Assembly: GCA_963792365.1 (NCBI GenBank)
Contig: CAWBVW010000001.1
Coordinates: 912,592 to 976,591 of the forward strand
Origin: an uncultured bacterium
GTDB lineage: Bacteria; Actinomycetota; Acidimicrobiia; Spongiisociales; ZC4RG35
Direction of reading: 5' to 3'
DNA length: 64,000 nucleotides
In this document: positions 1-56,752 of the stretch, in pieces
Numbering within the stretch: position 1 is the stretch's first letter
How the letters are laid out: the number at the start of each line of letters is the position of its first letter
Position numbers and translations under genes: made by a program
The notes under the pieces: generated by a model
The model's input: the letters and a program-made list of their open reading frames with translations, nothing else
The model's database searches: none
What the model was told of the DNA's origin: nothing

Positions 1-1050
1 ACCGTGTTCGACGGGACCGTGTATGTGGGCGTAGCCTCGCTCGAGGAGGCGTTTGCGTTGTTTCCGGGGTATCCGTGTTGCTCGTTCCGGGGCAGCATGC
101 TGGCGTTGGACGAGGCCACGGGGCAGATCAAGTGGCGGACCTACACCGCCCCGGAGGGCTTCAGCGGGAATGCTCTGTGGGGTAGCTCGCCCGCAATCGA
201 CACCAAACGGGGTCAGGTCTACGTTGCAACGGGCAACAACTACTCGGTTCCCCAGTCGGTGCTCGATTGCGTCGCGGCGGCCGGTGACGACGCAAACGCC
301 AAGGCAGCCTGCTCACCGGGTGACAATCTGTTCGATTCAATCCTGGCGCTGGACATGAAGACCGGTGCCATCAAGTGGGCGACCAAGGCGATCCCCTTCG
401 ACGCCTGGACCGTGGACTGCCTGCCGTTCCTGGGTGATGGCAACAACTGCCCCGAACCGGCCGGGCCTGACTACGACTTCGGTCAGGCGCCCGGGCTGTT
501 CACGGTGAAGGGCGGCAGCGGGAAGAAGACGGAGCTGGTCGGCGCCGGCCAGAAGAGCGGCCAGTACTGGGCCCTCAACCCCGACACGGGCCAAGTCGTC
601 TGGGTGACCCAAGCCGGACCGGGCGGAGTGGCCGGAGGCCTCCAATGGGGCTCGGCGGTCGACGGACAACGGGTCTACACCGCCAACGCCAACTCCGACC
701 TCACGCCTTGGACCCTGCCGGGTGGGGTTGTCACAACGCAGGGTGTGTGGTCTGGTCTCGACGCTCGCACCGGCGAGGTCCTGTGGCAGGTGACCCCGTC
801 GAGCGGTGGATCGACATCCGGTCCGGTCACCACCGCCAACGGAGTGGTGTTTGGGTGCTCGCTGGACGCGAGCGGACACATGTACGCACTGGATGCGGCG
901 ACCGGCGCAGAGTTGTGGAAGTTCGCCAGCGGTGGGTCGTGCCTGTCGGGTGCGGCCATCTCCGGCGGGATGCTGTTCTGGGGCTCGGGCTACACGAACT
1001 TCGGGGGGACGCCGAGCACGTCGCTGTACGCCTTCGGGCTACCGGGCTGA
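1..1050 (+). CDS. PQQ-like beta-propeller repeat protein (BamB/PQQ-repeat family), 5'-partial at window edge
   Basis: ORF 4..1050 reads in frame from base 1; repeated W/G-rich beta-propeller blades (ALDxxTGxxxW, ALNPDTGQVVW, LDARTGEVLWQ) typical of PQQ-enzyme repeats. Confidence 0.7.
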   Translation, partial: TVFDGTVYVGVASLEEAFALFPGYPCCSFRGSMLALDEATGQIKWRTYTAPEGFSGNALWGSSPAIDTKRGQVYVATGNNYSVPQSVLDCVAAAGDDANAKAACSPGDNLFDSILALDMKTGAIKWATKAIPFDAWTVDCLPFLGDGNNCPEPAGPDYDFGQAPGLFTVKGGSGKKTELVGAGQKSGQYWALNPDTGQVVWVTQAGPGGVAGGLQWGSAVDGQRVYTANANSDLTPWTLPGGVVTTQGVWSGLDARTGEVLWQVTPSSGGSTSGPVTTANGVVFGCSLDASGHMYALDAATGAELWKFASGGSCLSGAAISGGMLFWGSGYTNFGGTPSTSLYAFGLPG

Positions 1051-1296
1051 GACGGGATGGGCGGGGCGACTCCGCGCGGTGAGTCGCCCCGCCCCAAACC
1101 GCGGGGCGGGGCTTGGGGCGGAGGATTGTTCTCGTTGCGCGGCGCCCCTGGCCTCGGGACGTCGCGGACCGCGGTACATCGAGTCAGACTCGATTCGGGG
1201 CGACAGATGGGAAGCGTTCTCACTACCGCTCGTCGAAACCTGGCTCGTGACCGGGCTAATGTCGCGCGCCGTGTCGCGGGATACGTCACAGTCCCG

Positions 1297-1369
1297 GGGC
1301 CCCTAGCTCAATTGGCAGAGCACCGGGCTTTTAACCCGTTGGTTGTGGGTTCGAGTCCCACGGGGCCCA
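1297..1369 (+). tRNA. tRNA-Lys: tRNA-Lys (anticodon UUU)
   Basis: Manual cloverleaf: acceptor GGGCCCC/GGGGCCC, D-stem GCTC/GAGC, anticodon loop CTTTTAA (UUU), T-arm GTGGG-TTCGAGT-CCCAC, discriminator A, CCA not encoded. Confidence 0.85.
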
Positions 1370-1578
1370 CGCCGAGTTTCCTCCGGAAACTCCAGGCGCT
1401 GCGAGGGATTTCGAGGGATCGAGCTCGAGCGCCATCTGGGTTTCTGGGTGTCGCGCCTTTTCGCGAGATCCTGGCTTTGTCCGTCGTTTGTCCGTCCGAT
1501 TCTGCGCGTAGAGCATCGTCGATGAGGGGTCGGTGCCCGGCCCGCAGAAATGGAAGTGACCGACCGGGAGCCGAACCC

Positions 1579-2640
1579 TCACCCGGCCTGAGCGAGGCTC
1601 TCCGCTTCGGACGGGAACAGGTGTCCGTACACGTCCATCGTCACCACGATCGAGGAGTGCCCGAGGTGGCGTTTGATCGCTTCTGGGTGGGCGCCCTTCG
1701 AGATGAGGAGGGCGGCGGCGGTGTGGCGGAGGTCGTGGATCCTGAGTGCTGCCGGGAGTTGTGCGGTCTCGAGCGCCGGCTGCCACACGTTCTTGGTGAA
1801 GTTCGAGTTCCGCAGCGGCGACCCGTTGGAGACAGTGAAGACGAGCCCGTCGGGGTCGGTGCCGCAGTAGGTGACCAGGTGGTGGTTGAGCATCTCCCGC
1901 AGGAAACTCGGGATCACCACGGTGCGAGACCGGTGGTTCTTGGTGGTCCCGAAGTGGAGGTCGCCACCCACCTCGGCGAGCGACTCGTTGACGTCGACCC
2001 GACCCCGGAGGACGTCGACCCGCCGCCGTCGGAGGGCAGCCGCCTCACCCCACCGGAGTCCGCCATAGGCGAGCACGTAGACGAGTGCCCGGTAGCGATC
2101 GTCGACGGCGTCGGCCAGCCGGTCGATCTCCACCGGGGTGAGGAACAGCTGCTCCCGCTTGGGTTTGCGTGGGAGGGCGATCCCGTCGGCCGGGTTGGCG
2201 GGGATGTACCGACTCCGGACCGCCGCCTTGAGGATCTGGGACATGACACGATGCGCCTGCCGGATACGGGATGCAGACAGCCCCGACTCCTGCATGTCCG
2301 CTACCCATTGCTCGATCGCCAGCCCGTCGATCCGGTCGAGCCGCACCCCACCGAAGCGAGGGATGATGTGATTGCGCAGCAGCGACTGGTAGCCGTCAAG
2401 CGTCTTCGGCTTGAGATGGGTGCGGGTGGTGATCCACCCGTGTGCCCAGTCGGAGAAAGGAGTGGCAGACAGGTCCGGATCGATCCACTCGCCCCGCTGT
2501 TTCTGAGCCTCGACCTGGATCAGGAAGCGGTCGGCGTCGACCTTGCGCCGGAACGTCTTGGAGCGCTCCCGCCCACCCGGATCGATGTAGCGAATCTGCC
2601 ACTTGGACTGATCGACCGGATGCCGGCGGATGTGCGCCAT
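1579..2640 (-). CDS. tyrosine-type site-specific recombinase (phage-type integrase)
   Basis: 353 aa; SAM-like N-domain, catalytic-region motifs (LRWGE, HDLRHT, MDVYGHL tyrosine) characteristic of the phage integrase family; sits next to the tRNA 3' end. Confidence 0.9.
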   Translation of the reverse strand: MAHIRRHPVDQSKWQIRYIDPGGRERSKTFRRKVDADRFLIQVEAQKQRGEWIDPDLSATPFSDWAHGWITTRTHLKPKTLDGYQSLLRNHIIPRFGGVRLDRIDGLAIEQWVADMQESGLSASRIRQAHRVMSQILKAAVRSRYIPANPADGIALPRKPKREQLFLTPVEIDRLADAVDDRYRALVYVLAYGGLRWGEAAALRRRRVDVLRGRVDVNESLAEVGGDLHFGTTKNHRSRTVVIPSFLREMLNHHLVTYCGTDPDGLVFTVSNGSPLRNSNFTKNVWQPALETAQLPAALRIHDLRHTAAALLISKGAHPEAIKRHLGHSSIVVTMDVYGHLFPSEAESLAQAG

Positions 2641-2643
2641 GGC

Positions 2644-2879
2644 TCAGTGTCCATCCTCCGAGGCCAACTCCGCAAGCCACTCCTCGACGTCGACCCACCG
2701 GAACCGCAGATGCCGCCCCACTCTGAACCCCCGCGGTCCCTTGCTTCGATGCCGCAGGTGTAGATCGTCTGCACCGGCACGTCGAGGTACGCAGCGGGGT
2801 CATCAACAGAGAGGAGGGGGTCACCAACAGCCCCGGTTCCTCGTACGGGCCCGTGTCGGGCACCATGATCGTCCCTCAT
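2644..2879 (-). CDS. small excisionase/AlpA-family HTH protein (Xis) with apparent 1-nt frameshift
   Basis: C-terminal frame encodes KGPRGFRVGRHLRFRWVDVEEWL* (classic Xis/HTH_17 tail) ending 4 nt before int start; N-terminal HTH part (LLSVDDPAAYLDVPVQTIY) lies in the adjacent frame (ORF 2520..2879), implying an indel near 2775. Confidence 0.55.
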
Positions 2880-3110
2880 GGGTGCACTGTATCAACTCAT
2901 TCCCATTCATACAAGCGTCAACTAACAATAAAACCAAGCGGTTCGAGGGGTCAGGTGGCTCGCCTGACAACCACTCTCCGTGACCGAACACACCGAGTTC
3001 ATCGGTGCCGATACCGGACACTTGGGGGAATATTTGCTTCTTATCCGGATCTGGTGATCTGAGATAGACCAGCGAGGGGAGAACAGGGCTTCGACATCTA
3101 CGATGAGAGG

Positions 3111-3326
3111 ATGCCCCTCTACCATGTGCGGCTCTCTGTTGCTGGCGAAACCTCAGACGAAGTCAAGGTTGACCTGTCCGAGACCGAGCTCGAAGAACAG
3201 TTCTTGGCTCCATATCGAGACGGCCGAGCGATCACGGTCAACGGTCGGACCATCGAGGTGCCGAATCTAGACCGATCCGGGTCTCCAAGTCGGAGAGATC
3301 TGCGCAAGATTTCGTACCCCAGCTGA
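3111..3326 (+). CDS. hypothetical small protein (71 aa)
   Basis: ORF in the AT-richer segment of the island just upstream of the TIR-like gene; no recognisable domain. Confidence 0.25.
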   Translation: MPLYHVRLSVAGETSDEVKVDLSETELEEQFLAPYRDGRAITVNGRTIEVPNLDRSGSPSRRDLRKISYPS

Positions 3327-3383
3327 AGGCTGAGGATCAGGTGTCGTCCGTTACGGTATTCGGCGGGCCGTCGTATCTGTGGC

Positions 3384-4010
3384 GTGCGGCCCCGCGCTGA
3401 AGATGTCACCGACCATTACATCAGTGGACCCCCCGGCCACCCACAGCAGGACGGCAGTGAAGACATCCGCTTGCGTCGCGTGACCGTGCCCTTGGGTCCC
3501 GGCGACGGTCGCAGCGTGTTCTTGGTTCACGGGCGAGATCTGTCAAAGGCTCGTGCGATGACTGAGTTCCTGCGCTCGCTAGACCTAAGGGTCATCGAAT
3601 GGGAGCAAGCCGTTCACCTTACGGGCGAGGCGAATCCGTATGTCGGTGACATCCTTGCCGCCGGCCTCGAAGCGGCCGATGCGGTCGTGGTCCTTGCGAC
3701 GCCGGACGACATCGTACGCCTGGATCCTGCACTCACAGATGGGGCCGATGACCCCGAGGTCAAAGAGGCGAAGCAGCCTCGTCAGAACGTCATCTACGAA
3801 GCCGGCATGGCTATGGCTCTCGCGGCGAACAGGACACTCATCTTGGCAACGAAGGGCACCAAGATCCTCAGCGATATCCAGGGACGACATGTAGCGCATT
3901 TGGACAACTCCGCTCAGGCGAGGAAGCGGATCGTTGGACGGCTTCAGGTTCTAGGCCTCGCCGTGGATGACTCCGGCCAGGACTGGCTCGAAGCTGGCGA
4001 CTTCGAATGA
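3384..4010 (+). CDS. TIR-like nucleotide-binding protein (COG4271 / Cap12-PycTIR-type TIR-like domain)
   Basis: Motif SVFLVHGRD...FL..L.L.VIEWE...ILAAGLEAADAVVVLATPDDIV matches the N-terminal signature of the CBASS Cap12 / Pycsar PycTIR TIR-like family (KVFIVHGHD...AVVLLTPDD); an alternative GTG start near 3479 is possible. Confidence 0.7.
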   Translation: MRPRAEDVTDHYISGPPGHPQQDGSEDIRLRRVTVPLGPGDGRSVFLVHGRDLSKARAMTEFLRSLDLRVIEWEQAVHLTGEANPYVGDILAAGLEAADAVVVLATPDDIVRLDPALTDGADDPEVKEAKQPRQNVIYEAGMAMALAANRTLILATKGTKILSDIQGRHVAHLDNSAQARKRIVGRLQVLGLAVDDSGQDWLEAGDFE

Positions 4011-4057
4011 CGGGATCTCGGCCTCCCCAATACCCCTCAGTCAAGGAGCGCGTGATC

Positions 4058-4393
4058 ATGGTGGTGAAGGTCGAGCGGCCGGGCACAGGGCCGGAGGTGC
4101 TCGTCTACTGGAGCCCGACCTGGCGGACCAAGCTCTTCTACAACACCACGCTTCGCTCGGATACTTCTGTCGAGGAGAAGTGCAAGTCATCTCTGGACGA
4201 GGTCTTCCGCATCCCGCCACATCGAGTCGACATCGATGAAACACAAGGCCGGATCTTGGTTGTCCGAAAGCGCAGTGAGGATCCCACAGAGTCTGAACTT
4301 GGACTTGTCGAGTACCGGTTTGTGGTCCAGCCCGTGGTCGTCGATGGTTTGCCTCGTTCGCTGCTCGAGGATGGACACAGCGGTTGGGCGTGA
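4058..4393 (+). CDS. hypothetical protein, translationally coupled partner of the TIR-like protein
   Basis: ORF 4007..4393 overlaps the stop of the upstream gene (ATGA); internal ATG at 4058 is preceded by AAGGAG with 8-nt spacing; no known domain. Confidence 0.55.
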   Translation: MVVKVERPGTGPEVLVYWSPTWRTKLFYNTTLRSDTSVEEKCKSSLDEVFRIPPHRVDIDETQGRILVVRKRSEDPTESELGLVEYRFVVQPVVVDGLPRSLLEDGHSGWA

Positions 4394-4812
4394 CGGGTAT
4401 GACTACTCAGTCGTTTCGCTTGCGTCGCTGATGCACGACGATCGGACGATGGAGGTGAACGGCAAGGAGGTGAGATTCGTCAGCGACTTTGGGGGCAACA
4501 CCCTTCGGCTGGTCCGCGCCTCTACCTTTGCGGCAGATTAGACCCCGTCTTGATGCCTACGGAGCGGGTCGCGTGAACGTAGCTGGCTGCTCTCTCGGGG
4601 AGGCGCGAACCGATCAACCGGGAACCCCAAGGGAGACGATCGTAGCGAACTCACGATCGAGGTTAGTCGCCCTGGCACTGCCAGCCTCCCTCGATATCGA
4701 GCGTCCATCCAGATCATTCACTGCGTGGCGCGTTATCGAACACCCATCGGCGTCCGGGACGCGGTAATCCCGCTCACCCCGCCAGCAATCGGATCCCCAC
4801 GATCCGCGGTCG

Positions 4813-5298
4813 CTACACAGATCCGTGACAGGCCTTGTACTTCCGCCCCGATCCGCACGGGCACGGATCGTTCCGACCAGGCTTTGCCGTTGTCGGCATG
4901 GTCGGTGGTCGCTGGCGAGCGGCTCGTGCCTCCAGCTGGGACGCCAGTGTTCGGAGATGGCGACGCTCGGCCTCCACTTCGGCCTCCCGCTCCGCGAGCG
5001 TCTGCTCTCGCTCGTTGAGTTCCTCTCGCACACGATCGATGAGCGCCACCGAATGATCGAGATCAGGATCGTCGACAGTGGACAGCTCGTGTTCGATGAG
5101 GATCGCGATCGCCCCGCCCATGGAGACGCCAACGACATCGCAGTATCGCTTCCACGTCGACCAGACCGCATCCGACACCGGCACTTTCACGAGCTGCGTA
5201 CCCTTCCCGTGATCGAGCTCGGCAAGCACCCGGCGATCGATCCGAGCCAACACTCCACGGTCAAGCGCCATCGCGACCCCCATGCGTTCCAACCGCAC
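4813..5298 (-). CDS. hypothetical protein with C-terminal SEC-C metal-binding motif
   Basis: C-terminus [15 protein letters not shown] is the SecA-C/SEC-C zinc-binding motif; coiled-coil middle; N-terminal region unassigned. Confidence 0.6.
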
Positions 5299-5315
5299 AC
5301 AGTTGCATCAAACTG

Positions 5316-5774
5316 ATGCCGAGTCTACTGGTATACCGCCAAGGGGTAGGTTGCAACTGTGTGGTCATGAGACCGCCGGCTCTGCACCTTGCTGTGAGTG
5401 CTGTAATGCTTTCCACGATGTTGCACAACAACGAACCGCACGGAACCTCGAGAGGCATTGAGATCACTGATGCGGTGATCGCCGAGCTCGCTCGGGAAGC
5501 CGAGGTGGGCTACGACACAGGGGCCGATGCGCACGCAACCGGCTCCAAGCTACGGCTGTTTGGACGAATAACCATCGAACCCGGCAAGCACGGCGGCCAA
5601 CCGTGCATCCGAGGACTCCGGATCCCGGTAGCGACGATTGTGGGCATGGTGGCCGCCGGCATGTCGGCCGACGAGGTCGTCGCAGACCTTCCAGACCTCG
5701 AGCCCGAGGACGTTGCGGAAGCCCTTCGCTTTGCGGCTGAGACAATTCGAGAAGGACACATCCCGCAGGTATGA
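5316..5774 (+). CDS. DUF433 domain protein (antitoxin-like)
   Basis: C-terminal half ITIEPGKHGGQPCIRGLRIPVATIVGMVAAGMSADEVVADLPDLEPEDVAEALRFAA matches the DUF433 consensus; true start may be internal. Confidence 0.65.
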   Translation: MPSLLVYRQGVGCNCVVMRPPALHLAVSAVMLSTMLHNNEPHGTSRGIEITDAVIAELAREAEVGYDTGADAHATGSKLRLFGRITIEPGKHGGQPCIRGLRIPVATIVGMVAAGMSADEVVADLPDLEPEDVAEALRFAAETIREGHIPQV

Positions 5775-5808
5775 GCCTTCCCTGACTCCCGACGAGGAGA
5801 CATAAACC

Positions 5809-7851
5809 TTGGGGCGGATGAGAACGACGATACCTCGGACTCGTCAATGCGACGGCGTGCGGGAACCGATCCGATCCGGCCGGCGTGACATGGAAGTGAT
5901 TTCTGCGTGTCGTTGGGGATCGATTGTGGTGCTGTCTCTCGCATTGGCAGCGTGTTCCCGTGCGGCACCGTTGGACACCTCCCCGCCGGTCGTGAGTTCG
6001 TCACCGGCTCCTGAGAGTTCGAGCACGGTGGCTTCGGCGTTCGAACCACCTGACATCGGCGAGTTCGATCCCGGCGTCGCATCTTCCGTCGAGGTCCCGG
6101 CCGTCGTCGACTGGGACGAGATCACTGCCGGTCTGCAGGAAGCACACTCAGGGAGCTCCGAGCTTGTGGCGGTAGCACCGGAGTCTTGTGTCGAAGTCGG
6201 GCCGGATCAATGGCGTGTCGACGGGTCAGTGACCGTTCCCACGGGGGTCGAATCACCGACGGTGCTTTTCCAGTTTGTCATGCAAAACGACGACGTGATC
6301 GAGTCGATCCCGGTCCTGGTCGAGTTCAGCGAGTCGGGTCGGTTCACTTTCGTCGCCGACTTCTTGACCCGATCGCTGCGAGAGGACGAGTTCTGGTGGC
6401 CCACGTACGGCTATTCGCCCGGAGTCGAGGGCTGCCTCATCGAGGTCGCATACGGTTCGGCGGCGACCGAGAGTGGATCGTGGACGATCGATGCCCAACG
6501 ATCCAGCGAGCCGATCAGCTGGACAGCGCCGCCCGACTCGATCCAGGCGTTGGGTTTGGGAGCGTCGATGATTGATCCCGACGACCCGAGGACCAGCTGG
6601 ATGACCATGGCCTGGCTCGATATCGGCCCAACTCTCGAAACAGTGTGGGTCCCGACCGACCCGCTGCTGCCTCTGGTACGGATGTCGCTGTCTGGAGCCT
6701 GCGACAGCATGACCTTAGGAGGCAACGGAACAAGCGCGGCCGTGGTCGAGCTGTTCCATCGTTGCGACCTGACCTATTTGGTGGTTGGAGATCCGCCTGC
6801 CGGATCGGGCGTGCCGGACATCGACGGATTCGAGTATGCGACTTGGATCGATCTGCCCGCCCTTTACACCAAGCGAGACGGATGGAACATCGTGATTCAC
6901 CCCGACTCGCTCGATGCCGACTGGAGTGCCATTTCCGACGTCGCTCGCTCGCTCACATCATTCACGAATCTTCGGGTGTCGGACCGCGATGTGCCCGGTG
7001 TAGGCGAGACCGTTAGCGAAGCAATCTCCGAGATCATCGAACGTGACGGTCTCACCGAGCGGAGCCGACGCCAGGTCACGCCAGAACTCGTGACCGTCGT
7101 CGCAACCGGTGAAGACCTCGGACAGTACGTGGGAGACATCCCAGGCACCTACGTCGCAACGTTCGATGTCAACCTGCGCGACGGCGCCTGGGTGGCGGGA
7201 GACCCGGGTCTCTCCGGCGGCGGTGACCTCTGTCTCACCGGTTTCGGCTCGAGCCATCCGTCTGCACCCGACACATACTCGGCGGCCCTCGTGGGTGCCG
7301 AACCGACCTGGACCATCCAGGAAGCCGCCGGCGACGGCGGATGGCTCTCGCTCGACACCGTCGATGGTGTCGCCTGGATGGCCGAGCTGAAGTCGGTCGC
7401 CTACCGAGCGATCGACGAGCATGGCGACCCCGTGTATTGCACTGCCGGTGTACTCGGCGATGGCGAAACCTGGTCACCGTGGCAACTCCCGAACGCCCGC
7501 TGGGACCTCGACCTCACCGCCATCCCCAACCAGTCACTCTCTGACGGTGACACCATCCGAATCGAGGGCAGCGGATTCCCCAAGAACGCCAACATCGACA
7601 TCGCCATTTGCCGTGTCGCGGACCCTGGACGACCCGACATCGCAGATTGCCAGTCGTTCGAGGAGTCAGAAGAGCGCTACGGCCGCACCGAACCGGACGG
7701 CACGATTGATCGCACCTACACCGCCACGTCGAAATTCATCGACGACTACGGACAACCGATCGACTGCACCACCGACCGCTGCGTGATCCAAGTCCGAACC
7801 AACGTCGGACACCTCCGAGCCGGTCAAGCGTCGATCTCGTTCGGTGGCTGA
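5809..7851 (+). CDS. large secreted lipoprotein of unknown function (island cargo)
   Basis: 680 aa; lipobox-like LSLALAAC near the N-terminus, Ser/Pro-rich linker, Cys-containing C-terminal module (CRVADPGRPDIADCQ...CTTDRC). Confidence 0.6.
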   Translation: MGRMRTTIPRTRQCDGVREPIRSGRRDMEVISACRWGSIVVLSLALAACSRAAPLDTSPPVVSSSPAPESSSTVASAFEPPDIGEFDPGVASSVEVPAVVDWDEITAGLQEAHSGSSELVAVAPESCVEVGPDQWRVDGSVTVPTGVESPTVLFQFVMQNDDVIESIPVLVEFSESGRFTFVADFLTRSLREDEFWWPTYGYSPGVEGCLIEVAYGSAATESGSWTIDAQRSSEPISWTAPPDSIQALGLGASMIDPDDPRTSWMTMAWLDIGPTLETVWVPTDPLLPLVRMSLSGACDSMTLGGNGTSAAVVELFHRCDLTYLVVGDPPAGSGVPDIDGFEYATWIDLPALYTKRDGWNIVIHPDSLDADWSAISDVARSLTSFTNLRVSDRDVPGVGETVSEAISEIIERDGLTERSRRQVTPELVTVVATGEDLGQYVGDIPGTYVATFDVNLRDGAWVAGDPGLSGGGDLCLTGFGSSHPSAPDTYSAALVGAEPTWTIQEAAGDGGWLSLDTVDGVAWMAELKSVAYRAIDEHGDPVYCTAGVLGDGETWSPWQLPNARWDLDLTAIPNQSLSDGDTIRIEGSGFPKNANIDIAICRVADPGRPDIADCQSFEESEERYGRTEPDGTIDRTYTATSKFIDDYGQPIDCTTDRCVIQVRTNVGHLRAGQASISFGG

Positions 7852-7865
7852 GCCGCCAACAGCAC

Positions 7866-8098
7866 TCACTCCGTCTCGCCAGGGACGTATCGGCTCGACA
7901 TGAGCCATTCGAACACTTCATGCCGGAGGAAGTAGAGCTTGCGGCCGCCCTCCTTGCGGTGAGCGGGGATGATCCCTTCCCGTGCCCACAGGCGGACGAT
8001 CTGGTCTGACGTTTGTAGCAAGTCGGCGAGCTGCTTGGCGTCCATCACCGCCGGCACCTCCGGGTACCAGCGGTCGTAGTCGAAGTCCTCGCCCATCC
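7866..8098 (-). CDS. excisionase-family HTH DNA-binding protein
   Basis: C-terminal half MDAKQLADLLQTSDQIVRLWAREGIIPAHRKEGGRKLYFLRHEVFEWL is an Xis/MerR-type HTH; ORF 7866..8219, likely internal start. Confidence 0.6.
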
Positions 8099-8101
8099 CT
8101 C

Positions 8102-8371
8102 TCAGTCCCGCCCAGTGTCGTCGGATGCGGCTTCGTCCTCGGGAACGGGCTCGCCCGGCGTGTACCGCTTCATGTCCTCGAGCACCTCTTCCCGGAGGAA
8201 CCGGAACTGCTGACCCCACCGGAACGCCCGCAGCTCCCCCCGGTGCACCTTGTCCCGCACGTCTCCGATCGTCGAATGCATCATCTCCGCCACGTGAGCG
8301 GTGGTCAGCACCAGCGGGTACTCGGCCCGGAAGCGTGCAAGGATCTCACCGGAGAAGTCAGAACCGGCCAT
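8102..8371 (-). CDS. excisionase-family HTH DNA-binding protein
   Basis: AEMMHSTIGDVRDKVHRGELRAFRWGQQFRFLREEVLEDM is an Xis-like HTH; ORF 8102..8419 in tandem with the previous gene. Confidence 0.55.
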   Translation of the reverse strand: MAGSDFSGEILARFRAEYPLVLTTAHVAEMMHSTIGDVRDKVHRGELRAFRWGQQFRFLREEVLEDMKRYTPGEPVPEDEAASDDTGRD

Positions 8372-8493
8372 TACGGCGCAAGATACTCGACGAGATTTCA
8401 CATCAGAACGCATCGGCACGGATCGTTAAAGACCGGTGCCACGATTCCCATTATTAAAGCAATCGGCATCTAGGTTTAGTAAGCTGAGAACCA

Positions 8494-9684
8494 ATGCAAG
8501 GAGACTTGAACAACGAACCGTGGGGCTCCGGGGCGATGCGCACCACCCTGGCCGGCTACCAAGCCTTCCACCCGGCTCCCCTGCCGGCGTCGCTCACCTA
8601 TCCCGAAGCGACCGTGGTCAAGCTGACGGAAGCCACTGCCGCCGTCAACCGGCTGGGTGGAGCCAGCCGGCTGCTCCCCACCCCCGAGCTGCTGATCGGG
8701 CCCTACGTCCGCTTGGAGGCGATTCTCAGCTCGCGCATCGAAGGTACTCGCACCACTGTCGGCGAGCTCCTCCAATACGAGGCAGCCGGTGACGACGAGC
8801 CGACCGGTGACATCCGCGAAGTCACCAACTACGTCCGCGCCCTCAACCACGCCGTTCGACGCCTCGACGAACTCCCCCTGTCGAACCGGCTGATCCGAGA
8901 AGCCCACGCGCTGCTCATGGAAGGGGTCCGGGGCGAATACGCCAACCCAGGTGAGTTCCGCACGACACAGAACTGGATCGGAGCACCGGGCTCCACCATC
9001 AACACCGCCCGGTTCGTTCCCCCACACCCCGACGAGGCGAAGGATGCGATGGGCGAGCTGGAGCGGTTCCTCCACGACCGGAGCCTCCCCGACCTGATCG
9101 CCATCGGATTTGCCCACTACCAGTTCGAGACCATCCATCCCTTTGTCGACGGCAACGGCCGCATCGGACGGCTCCTCATCATCCTCATGCTGATCGAACG
9201 AGGAATCCTCTCGGCCCCCGTCCTCTACCTGTCCGCCTACTTCGAGCAGAACCGCCAGACCTACTACGACCTCCTCGACCACACCCGATCGACCTCGGAC
9301 CCGTTCCCCTGGCTCGACTTCTTCCTCACAGGCGTCACCGTCATGGCCACCGAAGCAGAGCAACGCGCCGTCCGCCTCATCGACCTCCAACACACCGTCC
9401 GAACCCAACTCCTCGACCAAGGTGCCTCCCCCACCGCCCTGCGACTGGGTGAGGTGATCTTCGACGTCCCATACGTCACGGCCGCCGGCATCGCCAAACG
9501 ACTCGACGTCACGTTCCCGACAGCGCAGAAGGCCATCGACGACCTCACCCGAGCCGAGCTCCTGGAAGAGATCACCGGCCAACAACGAAATCGCGTCTAC
9601 CTCGCGCGAGGAGTCCAGGACGCGGTCTACGGGGCACCAAGCGACCGTGATCCCGGACAGGAATCGGCTTCCCGACACGGATGA
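8494..9684 (+). CDS. Fic family protein (Fic/DOC AMPylase fold) with C-terminal HTH
   Basis: Canonical Fic motif HPFVDGNGRIGRLL (HxFx[DE]GNGRxxR); about 400 aa with winged-helix C-terminus, typical long Fic architecture. Confidence 0.9.
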   Translation: MQGDLNNEPWGSGAMRTTLAGYQAFHPAPLPASLTYPEATVVKLTEATAAVNRLGGASRLLPTPELLIGPYVRLEAILSSRIEGTRTTVGELLQYEAAGDDEPTGDIREVTNYVRALNHAVRRLDELPLSNRLIREAHALLMEGVRGEYANPGEFRTTQNWIGAPGSTINTARFVPPHPDEAKDAMGELERFLHDRSLPDLIAIGFAHYQFETIHPFVDGNGRIGRLLIILMLIERGILSAPVLYLSAYFEQNRQTYYDLLDHTRSTSDPFPWLDFFLTGVTVMATEAEQRAVRLIDLQHTVRTQLLDQGASPTALRLGEVIFDVPYVTAAGIAKRLDVTFPTAQKAIDDLTRAELLEEITGQQRNRVYLARGVQDAVYGAPSDRDPGQESASRHG

Positions 9685-10541
9685 GTCGGTCACCAACGCT
9701 CATCCGGTGCACATTCTGCAACACGAGAGGGCCGCGCTCTCGACAGGACGTCATTCCGAGGTGGGTCGGAAAACTCCTCGGTGGCGACGCTCCCTTCTAC
9801 GAAGACCGCTCAACGATTGCCGGCGGCGTGTTGCACCCGATCGTCCAATCCCGACCACACCACTCGAAAACGCTGTCAATCATGAAGCTGCGGAACGTGT
9901 GTGATGAGTGCAACACCGGGTGGATGCATGATCTCGAAGAGCGTGCTCGGCCCGTCTTGGCCCCGATTCTCACTAGGAGCGATGCGGTGCTGCACAGCAG
10001 TGAGGTCGGTGTCACCGTCCAATGGGCCTTGAAGACGGCACTCACTTTCGATGCCTGGTTCCGTGATCGAGCGGTCGATGCCCACGTTGGTACGTGCCGA
10101 TTCCATATCCTTCAGCGGCCCTGGCCGGGAGTCTTCGTGTGGCTCGCCCGGTATCGATACCCAAGTGAAGGCGTCGTGATGCGGCAAGCACGTTTTCGGC
10201 AAGTGAGTGGTCGATTTCCGACATCAGGTCGAGTCGCCGCCACCGATGTCGTTGTATCCATCCAGCTGGGGAACCTCGCCATCCGCGTCGCAATCCTCGG
10301 GGACGGTGGATACGGCCAACCCTCCATAGTGAAGCCAGCCGGACACTGGATCCTCGGCCACCCGATGGAGGTGCCCTACAAATGGCCAACGACGCCCGTG
10401 AGCAATCGCGAGCTCGCACAGGCCGCTGGAGCAACGCCGAGACTGCTGATCCCCACCGACGGACCAGTCGAGCGATTCACGATTCGGCTTCCCCGAGGTA
10501 CGAAGGCGGTGCGCGCCGGATCTGACGAACCCACGCCCTAG
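9681..10541 (+). CDS. hypothetical protein overlapping fic stop (Cys-cluster CTFCN...CDECN)
   Basis: Start overlaps the fic stop (ATGA coupling); two CxxC-like pairs; no assignable family. Confidence 0.6.
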   Translation: MSRSPTLIRCTFCNTRGPRSRQDVIPRWVGKLLGGDAPFYEDRSTIAGGVLHPIVQSRPHHSKTLSIMKLRNVCDECNTGWMHDLEERARPVLAPILTRSDAVLHSSEVGVTVQWALKTALTFDAWFRDRAVDAHVGTCRFHILQRPWPGVFVWLARYRYPSEGVVMRQARFRQVSGRFPTSGRVAATDVVVSIQLGNLAIRVAILGDGGYGQPSIVKPAGHWILGHPMEVPYKWPTTPVSNRELAQAAGATPRLLIPTDGPVERFTIRLPRGTKAVRAGSDEPTP

Positions 10542-10705
10542 GTCCTCGGCAAGCTCCGGGCGGTCGCAGGGTGCTTGAGCCTTGTCCGTATCTTGTCCGT
10601 GAGAGGACGAGAAACGCTGCAAGATGACACGAACGGACCACAACCGAAATCCTTGATTTCATTGGGTTTCCGGGGGTTTCTCCTGGTCAGCGACGTCGTC
10701 AGAAG

Positions 10706-10752
10706 GGGCTTTTAACCCGTTGGTTGTGGGTTCGAGTCCCACGGGGCCCACG
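10706..10752 (+). repeat. attR: 47-bp direct repeat of the tRNA-Lys 3' half (matches 1325..1371)
   Basis: Read directly: gggcttttaacccgttggttgtgggttcgagtcccacggggcccacg is identical at 1325-1371 and 10706-10752. Confidence 0.9.
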
Positions 10753-10914
10753 TCGCTGGCCTTTGGCCAGCTAACGGAGTTCCCTCCGGAAACTCCAGCC
10801 CTGCCAGGCGATTACGAGAGCCGGACTCGAGCGCCATTGGGTTGCCGGGTGTCTGCCCTTCGCTCCGGATCCTGGCTCGTGGGTTTGTCTGTCGGTGTCC
10901 ATCTGATTCTGGGG

Positions 10915-11000
10915 AACGGATCATCGATGGCTCGGGCGAGGGTCCCCGCTCCAGATGGGAACAGGCGTCCGTAGACGTCCATCGGTCGGCGAGCCTGCAA
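10915..11000 (-). pseudogene. remnant of a second integrase 3' end (degraded tandem island)
   Basis: 10752-10990 is about 75% identical to 1371-1600 (tRNA downstream flank plus int 3' end); encodes RPMDVYGRLFPSGAGTLARA versus int TMDVYGHLFPSEAESLAQAG*. Confidence 0.7.
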
Positions 11001-11130
11001 GCCCGAACGTCGAGACTCCTGACGGCTTCAGCGGCGCTTCGGACCGGAATCGCTCCTCCGGTCGCGGCACGGGTGGGTGCGGACTGCCTTCGTCGAATCA
11101 GCGCACGAAGACAGTCCGACCTACAACTTC

Positions 11131-12212
11131 CTATCCGCTGACGGCTGCTTGTAGGTAACCGATCAGGTCGGGCACCTTGTTCAGCGTGGTGTGTCCACCC
11201 GGATACGATGTGAACGAGACATCGAGACCGGCGCCGGCGAGGCGGCTCTCGAGCAGCAGTCCAGAGTCGACCGTGCCGACCGTGCCGTCGTCGAGTTGAC
11301 CGAGCCGCTCGAGATCGGCGCCGATCGATCCATCGGGATCACGGAGCGCGAACCAGTCGGCACCGGTGACGTCGACCTGTCTCGGGGGTATCCCATCCTC
11401 AGCCACCCACAGGAAGAACCTTGCGTCCAGATCCGATGGCCAGCGGCTGGGATCGATCATCGAGGCGAGCTCCTGCTGAGCCCCAGCTTGATCGGTCTGA
11501 AAGACGGCGTCGAAGTTCTCCGAGTAGAGGAGGTACTCGCCGTCGCCCAGCACGACGCCGGTGGCGGCGGTGAGCGGCTCGTCGACCATGCATCCATCGA
11601 TCGGTTCGAGGATTGGCTGGAGGGATGCGAAGAGCGTCGGCCCCACACCTGCCGAGAACCCGTACAGGACCGTTCGTGATGGGTCGCCACCGACCTGGCG
11701 GGCGTGCTGCTGGGCGAATGCCACCGCGCAACTCGCCTCCCTTCTCCAGAGGGTGAACGAATCGAGGGTCACCGGGAAGGAGTGCTCGTCGACCCAAGTT
11801 GGTGCGAACACGATCATCCCCTCGGTGGCAGCCGCCGCGGCGATGGCGGCGTTGGTGTCGTCGTCCTTCGTACCGAGCCCGTGAAACGCCATGACCACGG
11901 GCCAGGGCCCTTCGCCCACCGGGGTGTAGATGTCCATGGATATGTCGCGGCCGTCGACCGTCATGTAGACGACATCGGACGTCTCGATGAATCGTTCGGT
12001 TGGCGGTGCGACCGTGGACGACGACGTACTTGGCACCGTTTCAGTCGTCGACGACACGGGAGCGGCCGCTGTCGTCGGTGTGACCGGGGGCGGGGGCGAC
12101 GCTTCGGTCACCGGTGAAGTGTCGGAAATGGCCGCCGACCCACAGGCAGCGACGGTCAAGGCGACAGCCGCGGCGATCGCCGTCGTCCGTTGCCCTTTTC
12201 CTGCATGCTTCA
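11131..12212 (-). CDS. alpha/beta-hydrolase fold lipoprotein (esterase/lipase-like)
   Basis: Lipobox LTVAACGS, Pro/Thr-rich linker, HGLG oxyanion motif and GFSAG nucleophile elbow (GxSxG); ORF 11131..12327, likely start about 12212. Confidence 0.75.
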
Positions 12213-16550: not shown

Positions 16551-17105
16551 GTGCTTCGGGGCAACGGAATCGAATTGCGGCTCGTCCGGGAGGGCGACCT
16601 GGGGACCCTGTACAACCTTCTGACAGATCTCGGCACGAGGGGCAGCTACTTCCCGCTCGGGGTGATGAGCGAAACCCGCCTGCGCGCCGAGTTCAACGAG
16701 AACGGCTTCTGGGATCAAGAAGAGGGCATGCTGCTGATCGTCGACCATGAGGATCAGATCGTTGGAGAAATCGAATACTTCCCGATCATCCACTATCTGC
16801 AGGGCTACGAGATCTCCTACCAGCTGTTCGGAACACAGCACTCAGGAAAAGGACACGCCACCGAAGCGGTCGATCTGTTGGTCCGCTACCTCTTCGGACG
16901 CAAACGGGTCAATCGTATGCAACTGAACATCCACCCTGACAACGCTGCCTCGAAGAGAGTGGCGGAGAAATGCGGCTTCACCTTCGAGGGGTTGATGCGG
17001 GGTTGTTGGTTCCACCAAGGTGAATACCACGACTTGGAAGTCTGGTCGCTGCTCAGGGCCGAATCCCAAGCCCGAGTGACGGCCGACAGATCAACCGCTG
17101 GTTGA
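16551..17105 (+). CDS. GNAT family N-acetyltransferase (RimJ/RimL-like)
   Basis: 184 aa; acetyl-CoA binding region QLFGTQHSGKGHATEAV...RVAEKCGF typical of the GNAT fold. Confidence 0.8.
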   Translation: MLRGNGIELRLVREGDLGTLYNLLTDLGTRGSYFPLGVMSETRLRAEFNENGFWDQEEGMLLIVDHEDQIVGEIEYFPIIHYLQGYEISYQLFGTQHSGKGHATEAVDLLVRYLFGRKRVNRMQLNIHPDNAASKRVAEKCGFTFEGLMRGCWFHQGEYHDLEVWSLLRAESQARVTADRSTAG

Positions 17106-17519
17106 GTGGCTGACCGCTCTGCAACATGACGAGCCCCCCGTGCGTCGGCGAGTTCACGGCCCGAGCGGATCCCGCCCAGGGCGGGGCGGAGGGGCTGGCG
17201 TCCATCAGGGTCAAACGAGCGGAGTGGAGACGTAACGCTTCGTCGACATCGAGCATCAGATCCGAAGGACAGTCCCGATCCCGTGCAACACACGTTCTGC
17301 GGATACGGACCGAACCTGCCCTGCCTGAGCTTTCGGGCCACGCTCTAGGTCGGACTCTCTAGCGCGGATGAGCACCTGGAACGGATAGACGCGATCGATA
17401 CTGGTGGTAATCGGGACGACGTCACTGCGCCACGTTCTGCTTGGCAGTTGTCGTGTTGGCCGGGCCGGCTCGTGCCGGATCGACAGCCACGCCCGAATCT
17501 CGCCACGCAGAACCAGCGG

Positions 17520-18010
17520 CGCGTCAGCCTGGCGCCGCAGTACATCGACGTCCCCACCCGAGCCGAACTCCTGGCAGAGATCACCGGCCAACAACGAAAT
17601 CGCATCTGTCTCGCACGAGGAGTCCAGGACGCGGTCTACGGGGCACCAACCGACCGTCATCCCGGACAGGAATCGGCTTCCCAACACGGATGAGTCGGTC
17701 GCCAACGCTCATCCAGTGCACATTCTGCAACACGAGAGAACCGCGCTCTCGCGAGGACGTCATTCCGAGGTGGGTCGGAAGACTCCTCGGTGGCGACGCG
17801 CCCTTCTACGAAGACCGCTCAACGACTGCCGGCGGCGTGTTGCACCCGATCGTCCAGTACCGACCACACCACTCGAAAACGCTGTCAGTCATGAAGCTGC
17901 GGAACGTGTGTGATGAGTGCAATACCGGGTGGATGCACGATCTCGAAGAGCGTGCTCGGCCCGTCCTGGCCCCGATTCTCACTAGGAGCGATGCGGTGCT
18001 GCACAGCGGT
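17520..18010 (+). pseudogene. truncated duplicate of the fic 3' end plus the 5' half of its downstream partner gene
   Basis: About 490 bp, roughly 90% identical to 9555-10010; encodes LAEITGQQRNRICLARGVQDAVYGAP... and MSRSPTLIQCTFCNTREPRSREDVIPRWVGRLLGG... (ORF 17441..18265), then diverges. Confidence 0.8.
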
Positions 18011-18287
18011 GGCGTCGGTCGGCGTCAAGCTTCACTTGCGCCTCGATCATGTCCGCTGTCGGGGATGATCGGTGCCAGACGCATCCTGGCACCGATCGCC
18101 TTCACCGCCCGGGACAAACGGCCCCACAGTGGCGGTCGAAGTCGTTGTGGTCGAGTGGGCGCGACTGGCGACGACCGCCATCGAGATCCTCTCTCGATGA
18201 GACGTCCACCGTCCGCATCGCAGCGACACGCGTCTTCGATCGAACCGATCGCCTCCGCATCTTGACGCTCCCGCCAACGTGCAAAGA

Positions 18288-18325
18288 AGCGGCTCCGGAG
18301 GAGGCATTTACCTCCGGAGCCGCCT
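18288..18325 (-). terminator. perfect 13-bp-stem hairpin followed by a T-rich run on the minus strand (intrinsic terminator candidate)
   Basis: gcggctccggagg-aggcattta-cctccggagccgc directly 3' of the minus-strand gene ending at 18337; minus-strand reading gives ...GCCGCTTCTTTG. Confidence 0.6.
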
Positions 18326-18336
18326 TCGAAGGTGGA

Positions 18337-18834
18337 TCAGCGGTTGATGGTTCCGTTGAACACCTTGGTGAAGGTGCCTGCGTTCAAATCGACGTGGGTG
18401 GTGCCGGTTCCTGATCCGGTTGCATTCGCATACCGGCCCGATCCGCCGATCACAGTCCACGAGTCCGACCCGACGAACACGCCCGGCCCGACCTCGACCG
18501 CTTCCTGCAGGCACAAGATCGTGACCGAGTCCCCATTCCCGAAGGTGAGGGTTTCGGTAAGCGTGTCGGTGAGCCCTCCGTCGGTCACACCGGTGATCAC
18601 CACATCCCCGTGGTACGTGAACGCGCCGATCCGGGTGCCCACTCCCACGCCTTCGAGTTCGAAGGTGGCTTCGCCCGTCGGCGCCACCTTCCCACCGACG
18701 GCCACCGTGACCGACGACGGGGCAGCGGCAAACGCCGGCAGGGCCGACATGAGGGTGACCATCGCGACGACTGCTGCGACTGCAGCAAGCCGACCGCGGG
18801 CGGCGTTCCTAGAACGAATCATCGTGTATGACAT
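18337..18834 (-). CDS. small secreted protein of unknown function
   Basis: Signal peptide RGRLAAVAAVVAMVTLMSALPAFAA; Gly/Thr-rich beta-type composition; ORF 18337..18918 with probable internal start. Confidence 0.6.
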   Translation of the reverse strand: MSYTMIRSRNAARGRLAAVAAVVAMVTLMSALPAFAAAPSSVTVAVGGKVAPTGEATFELEGVGVGTRIGAFTYHGDVVITGVTDGGLTDTLTETLTFGNGDSVTILCLQEAVEVGPGVFVGSDSWTVIGGSGRYANATGSGTGTTHVDLNAGTFTKVFNGTINR

Positions 18835-40769: not shown

Positions 40770-41544
40770 CCTATCGGGAGTACCGACGACCCGACCCCGG
40801 CCGAAGGACCCGACTTGGCCGATCCGGCTTGGACGCGGCCGAGCGCATCACGGGGGTCGAGAGAATCTCCATGTACCCGTCGGATCCATGCGCCCGGATC
40901 CGGCACCCGTCTTTGATGAGCGTTGTGCCGTCCTGGCGGAGACGGTGAGGCCGGCGAGCGCTCGGTCCGGCAGGTCGTCCCGTCGATATTCGCCGGTGAG
41001 CCCTTCGCCATCCGAGGTGAGCACTCGGGGGGCGCGAGGGACAGATACGACTTGAACTCGGCCTTTGCGCCGACGGATGAGCTCCTCGTCGACGCGCTTC
41101 GTTTCGATGACATGCGGAGTTCATGGAACGAGAGGTAATAGATGTCTTCCCGGTCGTCGAGCACGCCGACTCGCACGAGCCTGTTGGCCTCCGCCAGAAG
41201 CGCGGGCTTGTAGATGGCGTATCCACTGACCATGCCGAACTTCGGATACTCCCTGCACCCGATGAACGTTCGGACGCTGTCGATCATCGGTTTGGTCTCC
41301 TCCGCATTCGGATCGGCGATCACCCGCCCGCACCGGCGAACCATCGATTCCGAGGTCGGAAGGGAACGATCCGGTCCACGACGTTCCAACAGAGCATGTT
41401 CGTGATCGGGATGTGAACGCAGGTCATCACCGTCGCCAGGGGTGTGCGACGGGGATCGAGAGGGGAGCGGCCCAAGGTCGCTCCCCTCTCTTCGAAGAGA
41501 TGCGCACGGAGGTCGAGCCGCCTGTGGACCGGTGCGGTCGGGGA

Positions 41545-56698: not shown

Positions 56699-56752
56699 GA
56701 CGCCACGCGCCATGAAGCCGACGGCTCGGCGGGCTGCTCGTGGTGGCAAGCT

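What the first reader, a model, noticed from the sequence alone, without database searches (positions are those of the whole stretch)
3384..4393. Orphan Cap12/PycTIR-type TIR-like protein with a coupled small partner inside the island: candidate minimal defence module
The 208-aa protein carries the TIR-like signature (SVFLVHGRD ... AVVVLATPDD) that defines the COG4271 / CBASS-Cap12 / Pycsar-PycTIR effector family. Here there is no CD-NTase, no pyrimidine cyclase and no fused sensor domain (SAVED, cNMP-binding or STING). Instead it is translationally coupled (ATGA overlap, strong AAGGAG RBS) to a 111-aa protein with no recognisable domain. The pair sits on an integrase-bounded island next to an AT-rich putative promoter region. 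A TIR-like NAD-depleting effector with a novel small regulator or sensor would be a previously undescribed arrangement.
Basis: partly seen in the sequence, partly recalled or inferred. Interest (0 to 1): 0.8.

Follow-up and report, generated by a model that had tools for sequence, protein, structure and literature searches.

The report
Frameshifted TIR gene with Nudix-fold partner
The "minimal" TIR protein and its small partner are fragments of two longer genes broken by three single-base frame errors; repaired, they form a rare pair of a 300-residue TIR-type NAD-cleaving defence candidate and a catalytically dead Nudix-fold protein that always sits next to it.

Summary
The ORFs and the CAP12/PycTIR-type TIR domain are real (Pfam PF10137, E 1.7e-26), but both gene models are wrong. 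The 208-aa ORF is the 3' two-thirds of a 300-aa gene (3111-4010) broken by two frame changes, near 3274/3275 and at 3392. Repaired, it aligns end to end at 66-73% identity with about 300-aa proteins and matches PADLOC's single-gene candidate PDC-S35 almost full length. It therefore has a conserved N-terminal region and is not a bare TIR.

The partner is about 160 aa (4058-4541), broken by an extra G at 4382. Only five such proteins exist among 5.8 billion. All five lie immediately downstream of this TIR subfamily, whereas every other TIR locus sampled (about 45) lacks it.

Most likely this is a TIR NADase abortive-infection module with a ligand-binding Nudix-like regulator. In this window it is either inactivated or mis-assembled. 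No cyclase is obligatory. I rate it a new variant of a known kind, of moderate interest.

The parts
3111..4010 (+). Full TIR-like gene (about 300 codons): a conserved N-terminal region of about 130 aa plus a CAP12/PycTIR-type TIR domain. It is disrupted by two frame changes.
   Evidence: The reconstructed 300-aa protein finds 211 homologues. The best are 300-305 aa, 66-73% identical, with 97-100% query coverage, and the alignment has no gaps. It matches PADLOC PDC-S35 model PDLC05007 over residues 17-287 against profile positions 21-273 of 278, E 1.2e-17.
3111..3274 (+). N-terminal piece of the TIR gene, read in frame 0 (MPLYHVRLSVAGE...NLDR). One base is missing after 3274, in an Arg codon CGN.
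   Evidence: The sequence GAC CG|ATC CGG should read N-L-D-R-I-R, as in the homologues.
3275..3391 (+). Out-of-frame segment. It encodes IRVSKSERSAQDFVPQLKAEDQVSSVTVFGGPSYLWRAA in frame 2. The assembled frame 0 has a TGA stop at 3324-3326.
   Evidence: Frame 2 gives 27-29 of 39 identities to P0001, P0002 and P0005, against 4 of 39 for frame 0. The codon-usage Viterbi pass also switches frame here.
3392..3392 (+). Second frame change. Either an extra C in the CCCC run 3390-3393, or two bases lost from one codon.
   Evidence: Read directly from the sequence against alignment A1. All 11 homologues have one residue between WRAA and RAxDV.
3516..3905 (+). TIR domain (PF10137). It keeps the family-invariant VFLVHGR, TPDD and NVIYEAG motifs, including the presumed catalytic Glu.
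   Evidence: Pfam E 1.7e-26 over residues 45-174 of the 208-aa ORF. The invariant columns are listed.
4043..4048 (+). Shine-Dalgarno sequence AAGGAG, nine bases upstream of the partner's ATG at 4058.
   Evidence: The motif TCAAGGAGCG...ATC ATG GTG GTG AAG is conserved in the window, L022 and L024. L023 has a GTG-start variant and L004 has AGGAAA.
4058..4541 (+). Partner gene, about 160 codons: a Nudix-fold protein with a degenerate Nudix box. An extra G at 4382 disrupts it (frame 2 for 4058-4381, frame 0 for 4383-4541).
1297..1370 (+). tRNA-Lys(UUU). Its 3' 46 bases (1325-1370) form attL of the island.
1579..2640 (-). Tyrosine integrase of the island.
   Evidence: Pfam Phage_integrase E 1.7e-20 plus the SAM-like N-terminal domain.
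10706..10751 (+). attR: an exact 46-bp repeat of the tRNA-Lys 3' end.
   Evidence: A weak tRNA-like Rfam hit covers 10674-10750.

Best explanation
The locus is a two-gene module carried on a tRNA-Lys integrative island.

Gene 1 (3111-4010) encodes a 300-aa protein. It has a conserved, unclassified N-terminal region of about 130 aa and a C-terminal CAP12/PycTIR-type TIR domain. It belongs to a family of mostly stand-alone proteins that PADLOC lists as the single-gene defence candidate PDC-S35.

Gene 2 (4058-4541) encodes a Nudix-fold protein of about 160 aa that lacks the metal-binding Nudix box.

Shown:
- the gene structures and the three frame disruptions;
- the TIR and Nudix fold assignments;
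- the strict adjacency of the partner to this TIR subfamily;
- the absence of an obligatory cyclase.

Inferred mechanism:
- The TIR domain is an NAD+-cleaving effector, as in Cap12 and PycTIR, held in check or triggered through its N-terminal region.
- On phage infection it depletes NAD+ and aborts the infection.
- The Nudix-like partner does not hydrolyse anything. It binds a nucleotide of the ADP-ribose, NAD-derived or NDP-X class, as NrtR does.
- Through that binding it tunes the TIR protein, acting either as a brake or safety subunit or as an additional trigger.

In this window the module is non-functional as assembled, because of three one-base frame errors within 1.4 kb. This is either recent inactivation of a toxic module or local consensus error in the assembly.
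For: Gene structure:
- full-length, gap-free alignment at 66-73% identity.
- 27-29 of 39 identities in frame 2 against 4 of 39 in frame 0.
- the partner is tiled by two frames.

TIR protein:
- Pfam PF10137, E 1.7e-26.
- PDC-S35 match over nearly the whole length.
- Y-E-A-G and TPDD are invariant.

Partner linkage:
- In the four loci outside the window, the partner starts 4 bases before to 130 bases after the stop codon of a TIR homologue (L004, L022, L023, L024).

Partner fold:
- pLDDT 92.5.
- These include the non-catalytic NrtR, AraR, MutY C-terminal domain and CFIm25.

Dead Nudix box:
- No acidic residue is conserved across the family.
- hhalign to MutT places L58, S59 and V63 at MutT R52, E53 and E57.

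Conflict-system context of the domain:
- P0126 fuses it to GT4-conflict (PF20706, E 4e-105).
- Relatives are cargo on conjugative elements, next to an HATPase_c protein.

Island and neighbourhood context:
- The window's island also carries a SoFic-like gene and a PDC-S12-like gene.
- TIR homologues sit among restriction-modification, HEPN and relaxase/integrase genes.

Precedent:
- Nudix domains act as ADP-ribose sensors in NrtR-type regulators (PMC9503650).
Against: - No experiment exists for this family. PDC-S35 is only a candidate.
- NADase activity is inferred from the Pfam family alone.
- The ligand of the Nudix-like protein and its contact with the TIR protein are inferred, not tested.
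- The partner is absent from every other TIR-family locus sampled: none of the roughly 45 further loci L001-L021 and L033-L064 has it in a six-frame profile search. It is therefore dispensable for the family.
- The N-terminal region has no detectable family and no model was made of it.
- Three frameshifts mean this copy may be dead.
Confidence: 0.55

Rival explanations
1. Thoeris-like signalling pair. The TIR protein is the signal generator, making a cADPR-type or ADPR-derived molecule on infection. The Nudix-like protein is the receptor that executes or relays the response.
For: - TIR-plus-neighbour two-gene operons are the Thoeris architecture, and 29 putative types with varied effectors are now proposed (10.64898/2025.12.03.692087).
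- Inactive Nudix domains sense ADP-ribose in NrtR (PMC9503650).
- Distant relatives of the partner domain are fused to effector-like modules. These are GT4-conflict and, by my own reading of the sequences, membrane-spanning segments. That is how a sensor domain behaves.
Against: - The TIR domain is of the PF10137 type, which is known as an NAD-depleting effector in CBASS and Pycsar. It is not the ThsB type.
- The stand-alone partner has no effector module.
- Most TIR family members are single genes.
- The Thoeris survey's main text does not mention Nudix.
Confidence: 0.15
2. Toxin-antitoxin-like pair. The Nudix-like protein is an immunity or antitoxin subunit that neutralises a constitutively toxic TIR NADase, by binding it or by mopping up its product. 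Phage-induced loss of the partner releases the toxin.
For: - Tight coupling: ATGA or GTGA overlap, or a 47-base gap with a strong Shine-Dalgarno sequence.
- The partner is small.
- TIR genes in this group are found inactivated: IS insertions in L004 and frameshifts here. This is as expected for a toxic gene.
Against: - The antitoxin is downstream of the toxin and is absent from most family members, which therefore tolerate the TIR protein alone.
- The same Nudix-like domain occurs fused to other effector-type modules, which fits a sensor better than a dedicated antitoxin.
Confidence: 0.15
3. One reading: an intact minimal system made of a 208-aa TIR-only protein and a 111-aa partner with no recognisable domain.
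For: Both ORFs are open as assembled. A gene caller recorded the 111-aa product (P0122).
Against: - Both ORFs are fragments of longer conserved genes.
- By direct reading of the sequence, there is no Shine-Dalgarno sequence before GTG 3384.
- The 111-aa product would lack the C-terminal third of the Nudix fold, including its long C-terminal helix.
Confidence: 0.03
4. The partner is an unrelated passenger gene that happens to lie next to the TIR gene on related mobile islands.
For: Only five loci are known, and three TIR genes (window, L022, L023) are close relatives at 86-94% identity over the C-terminal 78 aa. Shared ancestry could therefore explain part of the linkage.
Against: - Adjacency is five of five, on the same strand and with overlapping or closely spaced genes.
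- The pair is retained at only 58-67% partner identity.
- The L004 TIR gene belongs to a different sub-branch.
Confidence: 0.1

Closest known systems
PADLOC PDC-S35 (single-gene phage defence candidate)
   Same: A near-full-length profile match covers both the N-terminal region and the TIR domain (residues 17-287 against profile 21-273 of 278, E 1.2e-17). Most homologues are stand-alone genes in defence or mobile-element contexts.
   Different: The match is moderate, so this is a relative rather than a core member. PDC-S35 is defined as a single gene, whereas here and in four other loci a Nudix-fold gene is attached. To my knowledge PDC-S35 is itself untested, and no paper in the searched library names it.
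Cap12 (CBASS) and PycTIR (Pycsar) TIR NADase effectors
   Same: The same Pfam TIR family, PF10137. PADLOC's PycTIR and CBASS TIR-effector models hit the TIR domain (E 1e-8 to 1e-9). NAD+ depletion is the presumed output.
   Different: - The NCBIfam Cap12 equivalog scores 24.9 bits against a cut-off of 450.
- Similarity is confined to the TIR domain.
- No adjacent CD-NTase or pyrimidine cyclase is present.
- The N-terminal region is different and unclassified.
Thoeris (ThsB TIR plus ligand-activated effector)
   Same: A two-gene TIR operon in a defence island, in which the second protein has a fold suited to binding an NAD-derived nucleotide.
   Different: The TIR subtype differs. The partner has no effector module. 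Most relatives of the TIR protein have no partner at all.
NrtR/AraR-type non-catalytic Nudix sensor domains
   Different: There is no HTH domain in the TIR-linked proteins and no sequence similarity detectable by Pfam. Ligand binding has not been tested.

Membership tests
CAP12/PycTIR TIR domain family (Pfam PF10137) | Match to the PF10137 profile above the gathering score | tested here: met
   93 bits against a cut-off of 24.7, E 1.7e-26, profile positions 2-118 of 119. The reconstructed protein gives the same match.
CBASS Cap12 (NCBIfam NF050171/NF050172 equivalogs) | Full-length equivalog score of at least 450 bits | tested here: not met
   24.9 and 19.3 bits, over the TIR domain only.
CBASS Cap12 | Encoded next to a CD-NTase (SMODS) gene | tested here: not met
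   None of the nine island ORFs scanned has a CD-NTase hit. None is present in L001, L002 or L034, and none was seen in the ORFs of L004 positions 4500-9000. L033 has a SMODS gene 2 kb away, beyond an opposite-strand gene.
Pycsar PycTIR | Full-length similarity, including the N-terminal part of the PycTIR profile, and an adjacent pyrimidine cyclase | tested here: not met
   The PADLOC PycTIR model matches only residues 137-266 against profile positions 154-261 of 288, E 3.8e-8. No cyclase is found in the island.
PADLOC PDC-S35 | Near-full-length match to a PDC-S35 profile | tested here: met
   PDLC05007: residues 17-287 against profile positions 21-273 of 278, E 1.2e-17. Homologues P0001 and P0038 also match this model best, P0001 over nearly its whole length and P0038 in two stretches.
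PADLOC PDC-S35 | Functions as a single gene | tested here: inconclusive
   Most homologue loci have no conserved neighbour. The window, L004 and L022-L024 carry the Nudix-fold partner.
Nudix superfamily | Nudix alpha/beta/alpha fold | tested here: met
Nudix hydrolases (catalytically active) | Nudix box GX5EX7REUXEEXGU, with the Arg and Glu residues that bind metal | tested here: not met
No acidic residue is conserved across the 11-15 family members.
Thoeris | The TIR protein produces a signalling nucleotide that activates the adjacent effector | not testable with these tools
   This needs lysate and LC-MS assays. The architecture is only partly similar.
Integrative island at a tRNA gene | tRNA gene, direct repeat of its 3' end, and an adjacent tyrosine integrase | tested here: met
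   tRNA-Lys 1297-1370, an exact 46-bp repeat at 10706-10751, and an integrase at 1579-2640.

The most novel reading that the evidence does not exclude
The partner founds a previously undescribed family of catalytically dead Nudix-fold sensor domains used in prokaryotic conflict systems. It occurs stand-alone next to TIR or HATPase_c genes, or fused to a GT4 glycosyltransferase or to membrane segments. In the TIR pair, it reads an NAD-derived product or a phage-derived NDP-X nucleotide to gate the TIR NADase. That would be a new logic for TIR-based immunity, distinct from CBASS, Pycsar and the described Thoeris types.
Probability: 0.2. Interest if true: 0.7.

Novelty: new variant of a known kind. 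Interest (0 to 1): 0.45.

Why it matters
- TIR NADases are central to bacterial, plant and animal immunity, and how stand-alone bacterial TIR effectors are controlled is poorly understood.
- A dedicated, catalytically dead Nudix-fold partner would be a new type of control or sensing element for ADP-ribose-class nucleotides. The same domain turns up fused to other conflict-system modules, so it may be a reusable sensor.
- There is also a practical lesson. The apparent 'minimal orphan TIR' came from frameshifts, so cloning the native cassette would have tested a broken module. The intact sequences (L022-type, or the repaired window genes) are the ones to test.

Tried and rejected
- **Shallow structure model.** The first AF2 run of the partner used a 6-sequence alignment and gave pLDDT 48.7, which is unusable. 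It was replaced by the 15-sequence run.
- **Library unavailable.** The afdb50 fold library could not be used.
- **PDB sequence searches.** Searches with the TIR profile and the partner profile found nothing significant.
- **Pfam on the N-terminal region.** Six TIR N-terminal regions gave no hit even at E up to 10.
- **Wider scans for the partner.** Peptide-pattern scans of JGI metagenomes and IMG/VR found none. Alignment A3 was unusable for such scans.
- **Promoter and terminator scan of 2600-4900.** No sites.
- **Rfam on 1-12000.** Only tRNA hits.
- **Composition-based frame plots.** The simple GC3 plots were too noisy for this genome of about 64% GC. A codon-usage Viterbi pass replaced them.
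- **Source genome.** P0122 (111 aa) carries no accession and has no gene record.
- **Literature.** 'PDC-S35' returns no paper. The 2015 Burroughs et al. survey could not be retrieved.
- **Rejected reading: remnant of a CBASS or Pycsar operon.** Intact homologues also lack a cyclase.
- **Rejected reading: programmed frameshifting.** There are three independent sites in two genes, and the homologues are encoded in a single frame.

Full report
**1. What is in the sequence**

An internal ATG at 4058 gives the 111-aa version.

The 208-aa ORF matches Pfam PF10137 (CAP12/Pycsar effector TIR domain) at E 1.7e-26. PADLOC's TIR-effector and PycTIR models also hit it.

The pair lies on a 9.4-kb integrative island:
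- tRNA-Lys(UUU) at 1297-1370;
- an exact 46-bp repeat of its 3' end at 10706-10751;
- a tyrosine integrase at 1579-2640(-).

**2. The TIR gene model is wrong**

A 71-aa ORF (3111-3326) lies upstream in the same frame as the 208-aa ORF. Between them, a stretch reads as good protein in a different frame.

I joined frame 0 (3111-3274), frame 2 (3275-3391) and frame 0 (3393-4010). This gives a 300-aa protein.
- It finds 211 homologues. The best are 300-305 aa, 66-73% identical, with 97-100% query coverage.
- It aligns to them without a gap across both junctions.
- In the shifted segment, frame 2 gives 27-29 of 39 identities. The assembled frame gives 4 of 39 and contains a TGA stop.

The two lesions are:
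- one base missing after 3274, in an Arg codon;
- a net +1 change at 3392, either an extra C in a CCCC run or two bases lost from one codon.

The 'orphan 208-aa TIR' is therefore the 3' two-thirds of a 300-aa gene. That gene has a conserved N-terminal region of about 130 aa.

The whole protein matches PADLOC's single-gene candidate PDC-S35 over nearly its full length (residues 17-287 against profile 21-273 of 278, E 1.2e-17). It is far below the NCBIfam Cap12 equivalog cut-off (24.9 against 450 bits). The N-terminal region has no Pfam family.

**3. The partner gene model is also wrong**

The partner ORF continues after a +1 shift, caused by an extra G at 4382, into the frame that ends at 4541.
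- A reconstructed query finds proteins of 159-173 aa that cover 89-96% of it.
- Windows 4058-4381 and 4383-4538 tile these proteins exactly.
- The start with an equivalent in all five loci is ATG 4058, nine bases after AAGGAG (4043-4048). The ATGA overlap belongs to an alternative upstream ATG, whose extension is not conserved in L004 or L024.

**4. Is the pairing real?**

The partner family is extremely rare: five proteins among 5.8 billion clusters. In all four loci outside the window it lies directly downstream of a TIR homologue:
- L022 and L023 have an ATGA overlap;
- L024 has a GTGA overlap;
- in L004 it lies 130 bases after the TIR stop codon.

The converse does not hold. A six-frame profile search of all other TIR loci fetched found no partner. 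This covered the remaining genome loci and the 30 metagenome loci.

Gene tables for L001, L002, L033 and L034 show the TIR gene standing alone among mobile-element and defence genes.

The TIR genes of the window, L022 and L023 are each other's closest relatives. The L004 gene sits on another sub-branch.

The partner is thus an optional accessory, tightly bound to this TIR subfamily.

**5. What the partner is**

No Pfam, PADLOC or NCBIfam model matches it.

An exhaustive HMM search of 1.84 billion representatives found only ten relatives. One more word-indexed search added four.

With these 15 sequences, AlphaFold2 gave a confident model (pLDDT 92.5, pTM 0.87).
- All of the top 50 Foldseek PDB hits are Nudix-fold proteins too.
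- They include the non-catalytic NrtR, AraR, MutY C-terminal domain, CFIm25 and mL46.
- The viral library agrees.

The Nudix box is degenerate.
- Family-wide invariant residues are L29, Y31, W36, L40, Y100, L164 and S170, with N148 nearly invariant. None is acidic.
- A profile alignment to MutT places L58, S59 and V63 at MutT R52, E53 and E57.

I conclude that this is a Nudix fold without canonical pyrophosphatase capacity.

**6. Context of the wider Nudix-like family**

- P0126 fuses the domain to a 'GT4-conflict' glycosyltransferase (PF20706, E 4e-105). That domain has been described as an effector in bacterial conflict systems (PMC8195603).
- Several relatives carry hydrophobic N- or C-terminal segments. 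This is my own reading of the sequences, not a prediction from a tool.
- P0132, P0134 and P0136 are cargo on conjugative or mobilisable elements. Each lies immediately upstream of a protein of 241-249 aa, which is an HATPase_c protein in the P0132 and P0134 loci and has no Pfam hit in the P0136 locus.

This distribution is that of a sensor or adaptor domain rather than a housekeeping enzyme.

**7. Are the frameshifts real?**

A codon-usage Viterbi pass over the 64 kb shows few mid-ORF frame switches. They occur in the TIR gene (two), the partner (one) and a luciferase-like monooxygenase near 26661. One more is possible near 40.8 kb.

The monooxygenase case is confirmed by Pfam:
- profile positions 21-233 lie in one frame;
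- positions 275-313 lie in another.

So indels occur elsewhere in this assembly, which makes consensus error plausible. Yet three of about five fall within 1.4 kb, which argues for something local. That could be genuine inactivation of a toxic module or poor consensus over a variable island.

Apart from the three indels, both genes look undecayed. Identity in the shifted segment is 69%, against 73% overall.

In the related MAG L004, the TIR homologue is truly inactivated by IS630-like and IS3-like insertions.

I cannot decide between the two readings without the raw reads.

**8. Mechanism**

Shown:
- the gene structures;
- the fold and domain assignments;
- the linkage;
- the lack of an obligatory cyclase.

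Inferred:
- The TIR protein is an NAD+-depleting abortive-infection effector of the Cap12/PycTIR kind, with its own N-terminal control region.
- The Nudix-like protein binds a nucleotide of the ADP-ribose or NDP-X class and modulates the TIR protein. NrtR is the precedent for Nudix domains as ADP-ribose sensors (PMC9503650).

Rivals:
- a Thoeris-like signal and receptor pair (see the 2025 survey, whose main text does not mention Nudix);
- an antitoxin-like brake;
- a passenger gene.

**9. Verdict**

- It is not a bare orphan TIR. It is a PDC-S35-like TIR protein with a rare, previously unclassified dead-Nudix partner, and this copy is broken or mis-assembled.
- Novelty: a new variant of a known kind.
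- Interest: moderate (0.45). The main value is the Nudix-like sensor family and a testable TIR-Nudix pairing.

Noticed in passing
window 8494-10541: A SoFic-like Fic gene (8494-9684; PADLOC SoFic E 2e-113) overlaps by ATGA a 286-aa Cys-rich ORF (9681-10541) that has no Pfam or PADLOC hit. This may be a second two-gene defence module on the same island.
   Followed up: partly
window 4813-5774: A SEC-C-motif protein (4813-5298, minus strand) hits PADLOC candidate PDC-S12 (E 7e-10). It is divergent from a DUF433 gene (5316-5774).
   Followed up: partly
window 25991-26973: A luciferase-like monooxygenase outside the island is frameshifted near 26640-26661. Pfam profile positions 21-233 lie in one frame and positions 275-313 in another.
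   Followed up: yes
window 56283-59227: Two coding-like segments in the same frame (56283-56692 and 56780-59200) are separated by an in-frame stop at 56696-56698. This is either two genes or a nonsense-interrupted gene.
   Followed up: no
window 17088-18342: About 1.25 kb has no consistent coding frame in the codon-usage analysis, although long ORFs are present.
   Followed up: no
window 39864-41389: Minus-strand ORFs 39864-40847 and 40766-41389 overlap by about 80 bases, with a frame switch in coding potential. This may be a further frameshifted gene.
   Followed up: no
window 10674-10750: A weak tRNA-like Rfam hit (33 bits, gathering score 29) covers the attR repeat. ARAGORN does not call it. 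It is probably a tRNA remnant created by island integration.
   Followed up: partly
window 5809-7851: A 680-aa island protein has a C-terminal neocarzinostatin-family domain (E 6e-8). By my own reading its N-terminus looks like a signal or lipoprotein sequence. This is unusual cargo for a small integrative island.
   Followed up: no
L004 6001-9610: In an uncultured Acidimicrobiia MAG, the TIR homologue is split at about residue 210 by IS630-like (6625-7740, minus strand) and IS3-like (7852 to about 9287) insertions. The Nudix-like partner downstream (9741-10232) is intact.
   Followed up: partly
L033 8973-11088: A SMODS nucleotidyltransferase operon lies 2 kb downstream of a TIR homologue, separated from it by an opposite-strand M78-peptidase/HTH gene. 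HEPN and type I restriction-modification genes are nearby. It is probably a separate system in one defence island.
   Followed up: no
L025, L027, L029 (about 5001-6900 in each): Distant Nudix-like relatives of about 292 aa with an N-terminal extension are cargo on conjugative elements, and each is followed by a protein of 241-249 aa. That protein is an HATPase_c protein in L025 and L027 and has no Pfam hit in L029. This may be another uncharacterised two-gene module.
   Followed up: partly
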